Source of the DNA: Octopus vulgaris
Taxonomy: Eukaryota
DNA: 64,000 bases
Reading direction: 5' to 3'
Assembly (NCBI GenBank): GCA_951406725.2
Contig: OX597820.1
Coordinates: 104,098,001 to 104,162,000 of the forward strand
How positions within the stretch are numbered: position 1 is the first letter of the stretch; each line of letters starts with the position of its first letter. The notes below the pieces were generated by a model. The model was not told the origin of the DNA and did no database searches. It saw only the letters and a program-made list of their open reading frames with translations. This document shows, piece after piece, positions 1,353-27,059 of the stretch. The translations under genes and the position numbers were made by a program.

Positions 1353-1510
1353 ATGAACAAGGATCACCTATTGATGAAAATCTTGTGGATGCTATTCTTC
1401 TTGGAACAAAGAGAATAGGTCATGGCTATGCCTTAGTAAAACATCCAGCACTCTTAAAATTAGTACAGAAACGAAATCTTCCGATTGAAGTTTGCCCTAT
1501 ATCCAACCAG
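1353..1510 (+). CDS. ADA2: Adenosine deaminase 2 / ADGF (CECR1-like), internal exon
   Basis: tttcag| acceptor and CAG|gtacgt donor. Encodes (D)EQGSPIDENLVDAILLGTKRIGHGYALVKHPALLKLVQKRNLPIEVCPISNQ, with the RIGHG and IEVCPISNQ motifs of ADA2/ADGF. Confidence 0.95.
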
Positions 1511-1862
1511 GTACGTAACCTGTGCTTCATTTTTTGGAGGGTGGGGGTCAGTGATACATGAATTTCATTCTCTCATTGTAAAGATAAAATGATTTTGTGG
1601 AATGTATTTTTCTAATACAAACGTCAGTATCTATAGTCTTTTCAAGGCGTCACACAGATATTGATTATGTATACGGTAGCCATGGTCATGCCCTCTTTGA
1701 CTAGCAAGAATGTAGATAGAGAAAGAGGGGGAGGGTGGGAGAGAGAGGGGGAGAAGGAGGGAAAGAGGTTGAAGGAGCGAGAGAAAGATTTGTACTATAA
1801 GTTTTTATAAATCAGAAACAGAAAAAGAAACACGTATCATTGGTAACAGGGTGGGTATATTA

Positions 1863-2204
1863 TTATTCATTTCTGCTCTAGGCACAAGGCCCGAATTTTT
1901 TTAGGTGGGGGGCAGTCGATTAGATCGACCCAGTACACATCTGGTACTTTATTTATCGACCCCGAAAGGATGAAAGGTAGAGTCGACCTCGGCGGAACTC
2001 AGAACGTAGCGGCAGACGAAATACCTATTTCTTTACTACCCACAAGGGGCTAAACACAGAGAGGACAAACAAGGACAGACAAACGGATTAAGTCGATTAT
2101 ATCGACCCCAGTGCGTAACTGGTACTTATTTCTATCGATCCCGAAAGGATGAAAGGCAAAGTCGACCTCGGCGGAATTTGAACTCGGAACATAGCGGCAG
2201 AAAG
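1863..2204 (-). mobile_element. Two adjacent SINE copies (family A)
   Basis: Repeated cgaaaggatgaaagg..gtcgacctcggcggaa core, shared with 4226-4455, 12601-12860 and 13580-13997. Confidence 0.85.
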
Positions 2205-2664
2205 TTAAGAAAGATCCTTCAATTAAACAAATTGTCAAGATTGTAGATAATTCTTCTTTGGCAAAAGGCATCCAACCCTTGTGTTACGATTGAGTTAATT
2301 AAACCGAAAATCTTAAACTTTTATCTAAAGTACCAAGCGTTACTAAAATCTGTGAAAAATAGAAAAGGCCCGGTATATATATATAAAAGTTTAAGATTTT
2401 CGGTTTAACTAATATATATATATTTAGCGTTACTAAAATCTGTGAAATATATATATATTAGTTAAACCGAAAATCTTAAACTTTTATATATATATACCGG
2501 GCCTTTTCTATTTTTCACAGATTTTAGTAACGCTTGGTACTTTAGATAAAAGTTTAAGATTTTCGGTTTAACTAACTCAATCGTAACACAAGGGTTAGAT
2601 GCTTTTGCCAAAGAAGAATTATCTACAATCTTGACAATTTGTTTAATTGAAGGATCTTTCTTAA
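2205..2664. repeat. 460-bp nested palindrome bounded by TTAA
   Basis: ~220-bp arms are near-perfect reverse complements; each arm has its own internal inverted repeat. Confidence 0.95.
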
Positions 2665-3273
2665 GTACATACTTTTCTTTTTCTCGTTGAAATAAAACAC
2701 GTCCTTGTAAGTTGGCAAAACTCTCTCGCTAAGATTACGTGGAGTACCAAATGCTGGGCATTCATTATCATAACGTGCTATTGATTTATGAGTCATCACT
2801 AAATGTATACAACACTAAATTTAACACGATCACTAATTTTAATACACTGGCCTAAAGTCAAGGTACAAAGCAGAAAACTTCACACACGTACGACTTACGT
2901 CCACGCGCAACGACCATTGCAGCAGCACTGGAGACGCGTCCACATTCCCGTTCTCTTTATAGTCAATACGGAATCTCAAGATATTAATCAATTCTATTGG
3001 AACTTAATATGCAACCTCTTGAGAATACTATATTTACTGTTTTGCATTCTACTATATAGAAATATGTATTCGTTACGACTTATAATCCATGAAATCCAAA
3101 ATTCAACCAAAAGTAGCGATTTTTAAAATTTTCTGTTGCGTTGCAGAACCTGAAAAAATATTTAACCGCAAAAGTTTTTTCTACACCGTTCTTTTAACTC
3201 TAATTCGCAACAAAATATCGATTCTTGGTTACCAATTTCGAAAGTTGTATTTTTCCTTCCACCCTAATATATA

Positions 3274-3527
3274 TATATTAATCGAAGTGTACAGTTTTAT
3301 ATATCCATTACAGACGGTCTTATCGATTGGTTTCGCACTAAGGGTTCAACGGAGTGTTAGGTAGCAGTCCAATAATGCAATCCTGCGTTTTTCAGAGTGC
3401 CTTCTCTGAAAAGCGCAAGGTTACATAATTGGACTGTTACCTAACACTCCGTTGAACCCTTAGTGCGAAACCGATCGATAAGACCGTCTGTAATGGATAT
3501 ATAATGCTATACACTTCAATTAATATA
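3274..3527. repeat. 254-bp hairpin, probable inverted Penelope-like LTR pair
   Basis: ~124-bp arms with 6-nt loop tgcctt; hammerhead-like motif at 3403-3483. Confidence 0.85.
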
Positions 3528-3588
3528 CCCGCTCAACTGACAAATATACGATTGCCTTTTTCCTGACTTACGGATTCTTAGACGGCTA

Positions 3589-3628
<40 letters not shown>

Positions 3629-3726
3629 TACGTATGTATGTATGTATGTATGTATGTATGTATGTATGTATGTATGTATGTATATGTGTACAAATTTGTG
3701 TTTATTTTATTTTGTCTTCTTGTTAG

Positions 3727-3929
3727 GTATTAGGTTTCGTGCATGATCTGAGGAACCACCCAGCGAATTATTTAATTGCAAATAATTACCCGGTGGTCAT
3801 CAGTAGTGACGACCCAGCTGTCTGGCAGGCATCTGGATTGTCTCACGACTTTTATTTAACTTTTATGGGGATGGTTTCCATGAAAGCGGATCTTCGAGTC
3901 CTAAAGCAACTTGCAATCAACTCCATCAA
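3727..3929 (+). CDS. ADA2: ADA2/ADGF exon with the SSDDP motif
   Basis: tgttag| acceptor, phase 0 matching the previous exon. Encodes [67 protein letters not shown](K). aa|gtaagt donor. Confidence 0.95.
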
Positions 3930-4225
3930 GTAAGTTTTCCGTTTATTAGTTTGTTTGCTTCTTTCTTTCTTTCTTTCTTTGTACTATGTTTATCATTTAA
4001 GGAATCATAGAAATCTTAAGAGAGTTGTTATTTTGATATGGAGAATGTAATACCCATAAATAAAGAACAGCTCTCCCTGTTTAGAACGCTAATCTTTACA
4101 AAATAAGGTTACAAAGATGAACGAAATAGCGAAAAATAAGGTTTCTCGTCCCAACACACCTGCAGCCTATATCGAACTTACTACACTTCAAGCGAATGGT
4201 TTAAATCACACAACCACTTCGAAGT

Positions 4226-4455
4226 ATATTTATTTCTTTATTGCCCACAGGGGGCTAAACATAGAGGGGACAAACAAAGACAGACAAAGGGATTAAATCG
4301 GTTACATCGTCCCCAGTGCGTAACTGGTACTTATTTAATCGATCCCGAAAGGATGACAGGCAGAGTTGACCTCGGCGGAATTTGAACTCAGAACGTAACG
4401 ACAGACGAAATACCGCTAAGCATTTCGCCCGGCGTGTTAACGATTCTGTCAGCTC
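4226..4455 (-). mobile_element. Full-length tRNA-derived SINE (family A)
   Basis: Minus strand has an A-box-like head, B box gagttcaaattcc and tail caataaagaaat; flanked by ccactt(c/t)gaagtatatt duplicates. Confidence 0.85.
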
Positions 4456-4589
4456 CCCACACTGCCACTTTGAAGTATATTACGACTGCTCAAATAATTT
4501 TCAGAATTAAAAATTTAAACTGAGATCTGCGTGCTGATTTCTAAACTCTATAGACGCAGAGCTAGAAGTACAAAACACAGAATAGAACG

Positions 4590-22174: not shown

Positions 22175-22705
22175 AGAACCATCCAGAAGGATAGATATAT
22201 CATTGAGAATAGATTTAGCTGGTGGTCTTCTTATTTTTATTCTAGCTTTTGGTGAAGCAGAAGAGGTTAGAAAGGGTCAAGTTGTGAAAACAATATTTCG
22301 GCCTAGCTAAAGGCATCTGGAAAATGTAAACCTGCTGTCAGAGGAAAACCATTGTTCCACCATGGGAACAGTTCTGTTAGTTTAAATTTCGCTATGGTGG
22401 ATCGAATCCACTTCATGAATGCAAGATTCACTACATATATATATATATGCATAACTACAGATTCCTGCAACACCCCGATTTTGGGTGATCATAATTTTCA
22501 GAAAAATAGATATTTTCAAATGAAATTTTCTACGAATATGTGTTATATCATGTAGATTCCGAATATAGAAAACTTATTGGGTGGGAAATTTCGGAAAGTT
22601 CACCGGCGTCCACTTCAATTCGTCTTAACTTTCAAGAAAATAGCAATTTTTTAATGAAATTTTCTACAAATATACTTCGGACTATGTAGAACTTTTTTAA
22701 TTACA

Positions 22706-22738
<33 letters not shown>

Positions 22739-23515
22739 GTATGTGTGTGTGCGTGCGTGCGTGCGTGCGCGTGTGTGTGTGTGTGTGTGCGTGCGTGTGT
22801 GTGTGTGAGAGTGAAAGCGGGGGAGACTAGAAATCTACGGATGCACAAACGCACAAAACGGAGAAAATGAAACAAATATGGACGACTTGTTCCAAAACAC
22901 CCCCGAGTGGGGAACGGTCCTCAAAAGTAACCGGCAATGGTTTTCCAAACAAATTCCTATGTTCTCGGAATCTACATAGTCCGAGGTATATTTGTAAAAA
23001 AATTCATTAAAAAATTGCTATTTTCTTGAAAGTTAAGACGAATTGAAGTGGACGCCGGTGAACTTTCCGAAATTCCCCCCACCCCCACCCCTCCTAAAAT
23101 ACTTTACCCTATAAGTTTTCTATATTCGGAATCTACATGATATAACACATATTCGTAGAAAATTTCATTTGAAAATATCTATTTTTCTGAAAATTATGAT
23201 CATCCAAAATCGGGGTGTTGCAGGAATCTGTAGTTTTGCATATATATATATATGTAGTGAATCTTGCATTCATGAAGTGGATTCGATCCACCGTAGCCAA
23301 ATTTAAACTAACAGAACTGTTCCCATGGTGGAACAATGGTTTTCCTCTGACAGCAGTTTTACATTTTCCAGATGCCTTTAGCTAGGCCGAAATAATGTTT
23401 TCACTACTTGACCCTTTCTAACCTCTTCTGCTTCACCAAAAGCTAGAATAAAGATAAGATGACCACCAACTAAATCTATTGTTCTCAATGATATATCTAT
23501 CCTGGATACCTCTTT
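22175..23515. mobile_element. Foldback element with ~500-bp inverted arms
   Basis: 22187-22690 is the near reverse complement of 22970-23505; mirror ORFs 22352-22555(+) and 23133-23336(-). The spacer contains (GT)n. Confidence 0.9.
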
Positions 23516-24705: not shown

Positions 24706-25150
24706 GGATCTTTTCGGTTTGACCGGCATTTTTTTTTTAATAATTTCCACGTAACTAAACACTTTTAAACTTCGTATACTGGTAGAATGTGTTTATAAAA
24801 CATCTTTTTGTCTTGGCTTTATTGAGAAAACTCTATGGTTTGTAAGGTATTTGTTGTTATTTTTCTTCAATTTCTGCAATTTCAACCAATCTATGACGTC
24901 TATTGAGGTGAAAACATTATGTGCCGTATGCATATGTCCCTCGTTTAAGAAACAGATTGGGTTTATTTACATTTGTGAAGAAAAAAAAGATACCCTTCCC
25001 CCCACACCTAACCCTAACCCTGACTAACCTTAACTAACCCTAACCCTAAAACAGATTGAAATGTAATAGATCGATACTAGGGTCATAATTATGGGTGACA
25101 ATTTCATATGACACCGCTAGAAAAAACTGCCGTTCACACCGAAAAGATCC
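24706..25150 (+). mobile_element. GGATCTTTTC-TIR MITE (Merlin-like) with internal (CCCTAA)n
   Basis: TIRs ggatcttttcggtttgaccggca / tgccgttcacaccgaaaagatcc; 8-bp TSD gaatacat; telomere-like repeats at 25007-25048. Confidence 0.85.
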
Positions 25151-26589: not shown

Positions 26590-27059
26590 GGATCACCGCT
26601 AGAAAAAACTGCCGTTCAAACCGAAAAGTTCCCGAGGGACATATTCATACGGCACAGAATGTTTTTTTACCTCAATAGAAGTCATTGATTGGTTAAAATT
26701 GCAGAAATTGAAGGAAAAAAACAACAAATATCTTACAAACTATAGAATTTTCTCAATAAAGCCAAGAGAAAAAGATGTTTTATAAACACATTCTACCAGT
26801 ATACGAAGTTAAAATTTTTTAGTTACCTAGAAATTATGTTAAAAACTGCCGTTCAAACCGAAAAGATCCTGTCCCTCGTTTAAGAAACTCATTGGGTTTA
26901 TTTACATTTGTGAAGAAAAAAAGATACCCTTCCCCCCACCCATAACCCTAACCCTAAAACAGATTGAAATGCAATAGATCGATACTAGGGTCATAATTAT
27001 GGGTGACAATTTCATATGACACCGCTAGAAAAAAACTGCCGTCCAAACCGAAAAGATCC
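26590..27059. mobile_element. Rearranged copy of the 24706-25150 MITE
   Basis: Three TIR ends, left half inverted, outer 8-bp TSD ttaattgt. Confidence 0.85.

What the first reader, a model, noticed from the sequence alone, without database searches (positions are those of the whole stretch)
3274..3527. Long intronic hairpin whose centre abuts a hammerhead-ribozyme-like motif
Seen: a 254-bp hairpin whose right arm reads TCT-CTGAAAA-(GCGCAAGG..CCTTAGTGC stem II)-GAAA-CCGATCG-ATA-AGA at 3403-3483. This is type I hammerhead order, with stem I TCT/AGA, a palindromic stem III and an NUH triplet; the core has G8 replaced by A. Known: Penelope-like element LTRs carry minimal type I hammerheads with palindromic stem III that act as dimers, and often form inverted LTRs. 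Inference: this is an inverted ribozyme-LTR unit encoding the motif on both strands, 200 nt upstream of an ADA2 exon.
Basis: partly seen in the sequence, partly recalled or inferred. Interest (0 to 1): 0.75.

Follow-up and report, generated by a model that had tools for sequence, protein, structure and literature searches.

The report
Decayed inverted Penelope-type ribozyme end
This intronic hairpin is two back-to-back copies of the end repeat of an old, abundant Penelope-type jumping gene whose family carries a hammerhead self-cutting RNA motif, but here the motif is mutated in both copies and predicted to be locked in the hairpin, so it is likely an ordinary inactive relic.

Summary
The hairpin and the hammerhead-order motif are real (arms 3274-3397 and 3404-3527, 91% complementary). 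The arm is the terminal repeat (pLTR) of an old, high-copy Penelope-like element of the Hydra clade. Walking upstream in other copies reaches an RT plus GIY-YIG reading frame, and one copy has the repeat at both ends. Most family copies keep a complete type I hammerhead core (35 of 59). An inverted tail-less copy abutting a tailed copy in a TA repeat is the family's common layout (12 of 29 tailed copies) and is described in print. At this locus both arms have lost G8 and G16.2 and most of helix I, and folding puts the motif in a 124-bp duplex, so cleavage is unlikely (untested). One small oddity: the arms share eight derived changes, probably from local arm-to-arm copying (moderate support). 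There was no covariation within the family, no Rfam hammerhead hit and no RNA data. The scan has noted the same kind of element on other DNA of this genome. Verdict: new member of a known kind, low interest.

The parts
3267..3273 (.). (TA)n run at the left edge, likely the target site
   Evidence: sequence; 25 of 59 family copies end at the same place in a TA run
3274..3397 (-). Left arm: inverted, 5'-truncated, tail-less pLTR copy with a decayed hammerhead (G8A, G10.1A, G16.2A; helix I 5' strand cut to 2 nt)
3398..3527 (+). Right arm: 5'-truncated pLTR copy, including the apparent loop 3398-3403
3398..3405 (+). Remnant of the helix I 5' strand (8 nt of a 16-nt strand in the family); 3 contiguous pairs with 3481-3483 remain
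   Evidence: alignment A1, pair table
3406..3412 (+). Hammerhead core C3-A9 with G8 replaced by A (3411)
   Evidence: G at this place in 52 of 59 family copies, A in 4
3413..3466 (+). Extended helix II with a nested tip hairpin; predicted to form only when the left arm is absent
   Evidence: pair probabilities 0.65-0.89 alone, 0 with the left arm
3467..3480 (+). G12-A15.1, quasi-palindromic helix III and NUH triplet; G16.2 replaced by A (3478); family cut site would be 3480/3481
   Evidence: cleavage untested
3438..3504 (+). 67-nt stretch with one arm difference and 6 of the 8 shared derived letters; likely conversion tract (mirror 3297-3363)
3528..3587 (+). 60-nt family tail, present on this arm only; in long copies it leads into the element's 5' region
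   Evidence: 14 of 59 copies carry it; L124 and L125
3588..3686 (.). (TG)n/(TATG)n microsatellite at the right edge
1353..1510 (+). Upstream exon of the host ADA2/ADGF-type gene
   Evidence: PF00962 E 2.1e-8; boundaries
3727..3929 (+). Downstream exon of the host gene
   Evidence: PDB 3lgd E 7.7e-22; boundaries

Best explanation
This is a fossil insertion of a Hydra-clade Penelope-like retroelement, made of two 5'-truncated copies of its hammerhead-bearing end repeat joined head to head in a TA repeat, and its ribozyme is likely dead. Shown: the arm is the family's pLTR; the layout (inverted tail-less copy abutting a tailed copy) is the family's common one; both arms carry G8A and G16.2A and lack most of helix I. 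Inferred: the element's RT and GIY-YIG nuclease made both copies in one insertion event at the TA target; the copies then decayed; copying between the arms (template switching or gene conversion) spread about six changes across the central 67 bp; in the ADA2 pre-mRNA the sequence would be a long passive duplex removed with the intron.
For: 1431 first-look candidates for the arm in the genome, best others 88% identical. RT, CxCx5C linker and GIY-YIG homology ends about 550-580 nt upstream of the arm in the longer copies; 26 of 64 arm-bearing loci hold it, 24 on the arm's strand (22 distinct places; many of these loci were fetched by walking towards the frame). L124 has the repeat at both ends of the frame. 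Hydra motifs RWKA, SDKT, CxCx5C, CxxC and CxH are present (definitions). Core intact in 35 of 59 copies, with N7 the most variable core position. The family majority and copy L066 fold by themselves into the three-helix junction. 16 of 29 tailed copies have an inverted partner, 12 of them within 18 nt and tail-less, as described in PMC8557442 and PMC3846280. Forcing the hammerhead fold here costs about 116 kcal/mol. The arms' shared 20-mer occurs only here in 2.8 Gb.
Against: No cleavage assay, so 'dead' rests on sequence, folding and recalled knowledge that C3-G8 is needed. No covariation within the family: score 0.152, reached by 204 of 500 shuffles. No Rfam hammerhead hit. Pfam finds nothing in four old-family fragments or in the intact sister frame and only a sub-threshold GIY-YIG in P0001. 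Clade placement is by motifs and by-eye likeness, not a tree. The conversion step has mixed statistics: p about 0.017 for the low-difference stretch, 0.07 for the scan-corrected label test, 0.20 for runs. Other inverted pairs also share up to 7 derived letters.
Confidence: 0.88

Rival explanations
1. Same element, but the arms are alike because both were copied late from one already-mutated template (an aged copy mobilised in trans), or because a single copy was later duplicated by fold-back; no conversion took place.
For: Eight shared derived letters fit one mutated source; 10 of 1706 unlinked pairs share 6 or more rare letters, so such relatives exist in the family. Only 40 of 1431 candidates were scored, so a source could be missed.
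Against: No other place has the shared 20-mer within one mismatch. Arm differences avoid the central 67 nt (p about 0.017), which a single late event does not predict. The one-sided tail and TA edge match insertion-time anatomy.
Confidence: 0.3
2. The locus is a working or conditional intronic ribozyme that cuts the ADA2 pre-mRNA or an antisense RNA, as a dimer or after A-to-I editing of 3411.
For: The motif is in sense in a host intron; helix II still folds in the isolated right arm; metazoan PLE hammerheads are proposed to act as dimers (PMC4209133).
Against: G8A and G16.2A in both arms, helix I cut to 3 contiguous pairs, all helices at probability 0 in the hairpin on the + strand. The two motifs are on opposite strands, so they cannot form the tandem dimer in one RNA. 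Even intact PLE motifs cleaved weakly in vitro.
Confidence: 0.04
3. The hairpin is a foldback DNA transposon (MITE) or a miRNA-type hairpin, and the hammerhead look is chance.
For: Long terminal inverted repeats in a TA flank; the top Rfam hits are miRNA models.
Against: Rfam hits are far below their thresholds (46 of 100 bits). Most copies are single arms with ragged 5' ends that run into an RT frame. The full core is the family majority.
Confidence: 0.02
4. The hairpin is an assembly artefact (fold-back read).
For: Palindromes are a known long-read artefact (recalled).
Against: The arms differ at 11 sites. A 147-nt contig of run X7 crosses the centre with 100 and 47 letters on the two sides, and a contig of the same length and span is in X2 of the same study.
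Confidence: 0.01

Closest known systems
Hydra clade of endonuclease-positive Penelope-like elements, nearest Hydra-1_Obim of Octopus bimaculoides (Craig et al. 2021, PMC8557442; passages and supplement rows read)
   Same: C-terminal GIY-YIG, RWK and DKT motifs, CxCx5C linker, CxxC and CxH, (TA)n preference, sense hammerhead near the 3' end with the same first core half and a palindromic helix III. By eye the proteins agree over long stretches.
   Different: The hammerhead listed for Hydra-1_oBim has a 7-bp helix II with an 8-nt loop; this family has a 54-nt helix II and a long helix I. Two 11-12-nt words of this family are absent from that supplement. Hydra-1_Obim is listed as having no pLTR, whereas L124 and L123 show pLTRs here. 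This locus has no reading frame.
Inverted 5'-truncated pLTR plus optional tail of Penelope elements, e.g. Pen2a_Av (Arkhipova et al. 2013, PMC3846280; passages)
   Same: Head-to-head inverted pLTRs, with a short tail on one of them only.
   Different: Here the whole insert is only the two truncated pLTRs (314 bp), the tail is 60 nt rather than 30-40, and no target duplication can be read in the microsatellite flanks.
PLE hammerheads of metazoans (Cervera and De la Pena 2014, PMC4209133; parts 1-2 of 4 read)
   Same: Type I order, G10.1-C11.1 pair, palindromic 15.2-16.2 region, large helix II, mostly single motifs from truncated elements, some pairs on opposite strands.
   Different: The family motif has a 3-bp helix III, no clear extra nucleotide between 9 and 10.1, and a longer helix I than the minimal motif. 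This copy has C3-A8, which is neither the canonical pair nor the U3-A8 variant.

Membership tests
EN+ Penelope-like element | RT plus GIY-YIG frame linked to the repeat | tested here: met
   Family level: 26 of 64 arm-bearing loci hold homology to P0001, RT motifs. This locus and window have no frame.
EN+ Penelope-like element | pLTR at both ends of the frame | tested here: met
   L124 has the repeat upstream (with tail) and downstream of the frame; L125 has a 5' copy plus an inverted part.
EN+ Penelope-like element | Inverted 5'-truncated copy and one-sided tail | tested here: met
   At this locus and in 12 of 29 tailed copies within 18 nt.
Hydra clade | RWK, DKT, CxCx5C linker, CxxC and CxH motifs | tested here: met
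   Regex hits in 2, 4, 17, 19 and 18 of 62 old-family loci; a few linker and DKT hits are noise.
Hydra clade | [quoted passage not shown] | tested here: met
   Read by eye in the translations; no formal scan.
Hydra clade | (TA)n insertion preference | tested here: met
   25 of 59 copies end in a TA run, 14 run into the tail, 20 neither.
Hydra clade | RT phylogeny places it in the clade | not tested
   No reference Hydra proteins were held as sequences.
Neptune/Nematis clades | CX2-5CxxC linker and CCHH motif | tested here: not met
   The linker is CxCx5C and there is no CCHH.
Type I hammerhead (family level) | Conserved core and three helices | tested here: met
   Core intact in 35 of 59; 85% of cells paired against 32-41% for slid partners (structure derived from the majority, which favours it); majority MFE is the three-way junction.
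Type I hammerhead (family level) | Compensatory changes in the helices | tested here: inconclusive
   None above shuffles within the family. A sister family and Hydra-1_oBim keep the core with different paired helices (by eye).
Type I hammerhead (this locus) | C3-G8 or U3-A8, paired 15.2-16.2, helix I, accessible fold | tested here: not met
   C3-A8, C-A at 15.2/16.2, 3-bp helix I, pair probability 0 in context.
Type I hammerhead | Self-cleavage after H17 | not testable with these tools
   Needs a bench assay. Copy 5' ends do not pile up at the cut site (2 of 29 within 5 nt).
Non-LTR retrozyme | Non-coding tandem monomers of 150-400 nt with one hammerhead each (definition recalled; PMC7229834 seen only as a listing) | tested here: not met
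   Copies extend into a coding frame; no tandem array at this locus.

The most novel reading that the evidence does not exclude
The hairpin is no longer a neutral relic: arm-to-arm copying keeps it as a long duplex in the ADA2 pre-mRNA, where it is an A-to-I editing substrate that affects splicing or RNA level. At the extreme, editing of A3411 to inosine would restore the 3-8 pair and gate cleavage, an editing-switched ribozyme.
Probability: 0.04. Interest if true: 0.7.

Novelty: new member of a known kind. Interest (0 to 1): 0.2.

Why it matters
As a locus it matters little: it is one decayed copy among more than a thousand. It shows that long intronic hairpins with hammerhead-like centres in this genome are a standard footprint of Penelope-like elements and should be filtered as such. 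The family has some use. It adds a Hydra-clade element with clear pLTRs and an unusually large helix II, next to a young sister family with intact frames, which gives material to test PLE ribozyme activity and how inverted insertions form. Both are open questions in PMC8557442 and PMC4209133.

Tried and rejected
Rfam: no hammerhead among 20 hits on 2800-4000, nor among the 150 listed of 195 hits on 15 loci (45 not seen; microsatellite noise dominated). RNAalifold on A1 gave only 4 weak pairs. Pfam was blank for 4 old-family fragments and for the 727-aa sister frame. My first clade reading, Neptune, was dropped after the definitions. A pile-up of 5' ends at the cut site, suggested by L124, was not found: 1 of 29 at 3481, 2 of 29 within 5 nt. 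Only contigs were laid (X2, X4, X5, X7; X4, X5, X7, X8; 5 of 24 runs). No cover of the hairpin centre in X4, X5 or X8, which shows nothing either way, so the left arm is not established outside study P2. No tree and no direct alignment to Hydra-1_Obim were run, which leaves the clade resting on motifs. Paper searches: 'Penelope-like, hammerhead, octopus' gave only PMC8557442; the four passages of PMC13282606 seen mention Penelope-like elements but the text has no 'hammerhead', 'ribozyme' or 'Hydra'; I found no held paper measuring G8A, so that point is recalled. These searches do not cover Repbase, Dfam or subscription journals, where the family may already be named.

Full report
Observation. 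The window holds an inverted repeat at 3274-3397 and 3404-3527, 91% complementary, folding at -193.4 kcal/mol, z -28.6. The arms differ at 11 of 124 sites. The motif parts lie at the stated places. The hairpin is in a GT-AG intron, 1511-3726, of a + strand ADA2/ADGF-type gene. A contig of run X7 crosses the centre, and a like contig is in X2 of the same study, so it is not an assembly artefact. Run X4, labelled as another organism, holds 3446-3566 with 2 differences in 121 letters, so the right copy is likely shared with a related species; its left arm was not seen.

What the arm is. A genome search gave 1431 first-look candidates, 40 scored, the best others 88% identical. Copies have ragged 5' ends: of 28, 17 stop within 50 nt upstream of 3404 and 9 run on at least 120 nt. 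Two steps of walking upstream reached a broken frame with RT motifs, a cysteine linker and a GIY-YIG region. Its one database relative is an intact 803-aa protein, P0001, with a weak GIY-YIG match. Of 90 loci, 64 hold the arm, 47 the frame and 26 both; in 24 of the 26 (22 distinct places) the arm lies downstream on the same strand, about 550-580 nt from the frame's end where no deletion intervenes. Many of these loci were fetched by walking towards the frame, so the counts show linkage, not frequency. L124 has the repeat at both ends of the frame, the upstream one running through the tail into the 5' region. The arm is therefore the pLTR. The motifs RWKA, SDKT, CxCx5C, CxxC and CxH are those that define the Hydra clade (PMC8557442, passages). 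That paper's supplement lists Hydra-1_Obim from an octopus, with a (TA)n preference and a hammerhead. Its protein agrees with this family's by eye, but its hammerhead differs, so it is a relative and not the same family. The host is probably an octopus (inference).

The family's hammerhead. In 59 copies (chosen by likeness to the arm, so biased towards it) each core position is conserved in 52-58 copies except N7 (A 42, T 11), and 35 have a whole core. Helix I is long, and its 5' strand lies upstream of 3404. Helix II spans 54 nt. Helix III is a quasi-palindrome. The majority sequence folds into the three-way junction (-31.2 kcal/mol, z -2.2 against mononucleotide shuffles), and so does copy L066, but most decayed copies do not (helices recovered in 4-25 of 50). 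On alignment A1 (50 of the 59 copies plus both arms; 9 with gaps or off-family 5' parts left out) 85% of cells pair, against 32-41% for slid partners, yet covariation is at shuffle level (204 of 500), as expected for copies decaying from similar masters. Rfam found no hammerhead. Independent support comes from a young sister family with intact 727-aa frames, which has a hammerhead in both pLTRs at the same position, with the same core and different paired helices, followed by a TA run or a similar tail.

The layout is common. Among 29 tailed copies, 16 have an inverted partner upstream; 12 lie within 18 nt and all 12 lack the tail. Among the first 28 copies, 5 had an inverted partner. This matches the inverted 5'-truncated copy and one-sided tail described in PMC8557442 and PMC3846280, and the opposite-strand motif pairs in PMC4209133. 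Here the left arm ends in TA, the right arm carries the tail to 3587, and the apparent loop is element sequence.

This copy is likely dead. Both arms carry G8A (3411) and G16.2A (3478). C3 is unchanged, so this is not the U3-A8 variant of PMC4209133. Only 3 contiguous pairs of helix I remain in the right arm, and the left arm has also lost G10.1. Helix II forms in the isolated right arm, but with the left arm present all helices have probability 0, and forcing the fold gives -77.4 against -193.4 kcal/mol (+ strand folded, the - strand is inferred by symmetry). That G8 is needed for catalysis is recalled. Cleavage was not tested, and copy 5' ends do not pile up at the cut site.

One oddity. The arms share 8 letters that differ from the family majority, 6 of them rare; 10 of 1706 unlinked pairs share as many rare letters. 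A 20-mer holding four of them occurs only in these two arms, within one mismatch, in the whole genome. Six of the eight lie in a 67-nt stretch with one arm difference (p about 0.017), but the label tests are weaker (0.07 and 0.20). Sixteen other pairs are 73-88% identical and share 0-7 derived letters, against 91% and 8 here, so this pair is the top of the range, not a class apart. Arm homogenisation by template switching is a known process (PMC8604942, abstract start only). I rate in-place copying at about two to one over a late copy from a mutated source.

Mechanism. Shown: family identity, layout, mutations. Inferred: one RT/endonuclease insertion at a TA repeat made both truncated copies; decay and partial conversion followed; the RNA would be a passive duplex in the intron. 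The role of the intact family ribozyme, likely processing of the element's RNA as proposed in PMC4209133, is untested.

Novelty. Hydra-clade elements with hammerheads are published for an octopus, and the inverted pLTR layout is published. Notes of this scan on other DNA of this genome describe the same kind; they are unchecked and not counted as support. New member of a known kind; interest 0.2.

Noticed in passing
L123:1587-5030 (G000:C1:194225500-194231500) and L091-L120: Young Hydra-type sister family: 150 scored matches, many at identical score, several with 727-aa open frames, often as -/+ pairs a few kb apart. It has a hammerhead in both pLTRs with a very short helix II. Likely recently active and a better substrate for cleavage tests.
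   Followed up: partly
L127, L128, L130, L132, L142, L143, L144; L008, L022, L024, L030: 5' ends of arms in inverted pairs cluster about 22-28 nt upstream of 3404, just after a CAG that could be a splice acceptor or the pLTR start. Part of the pile-up at 3382 is an artefact of the reference copy used.
   Followed up: partly
window 2264-2425 / 2445-2606: A second, younger hairpin (162-nt arms, 98%, TA-rich centre) in the same intron, 670 nt upstream; by eye the arms extend to about 2210-2660. No convincing hammerhead core and no match to the two Hydra families.
   Followed up: partly
window 22208-22582 / 23106-23480 and 24764-24914 / 26664-26814: Further long inverted repeats (375 nt at 97%; 151 nt at 93%); the first looks like a foldback element.
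   Followed up: no
window 1870-2200 and 4250-4460: Several copies of a common SINE-like repeat in the ADA2 introns (label recalled, no call).
   Followed up: no
L141 and L124: One copy starts exactly at the family cut site (3481 equivalent) and one about 4 nt upstream of it; not enriched over 29 copies.
   Followed up: yes
window 3298-3377, runs X2 and X7: Contigs of study P2 differ from the window's left arm at 3 of 80 letters, one apparently matching the right arm, so the arm is polymorphic.
   Followed up: no
window 3481-3489: Three of the shared changes turn this stretch into a perfect 9-nt mini-palindrome, possibly a second, local template switch.
   Followed up: no
L046:2318-3003: A short VWC-like coding stretch present twice in tandem, downstream of a family copy (domain label recalled).
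   Followed up: no
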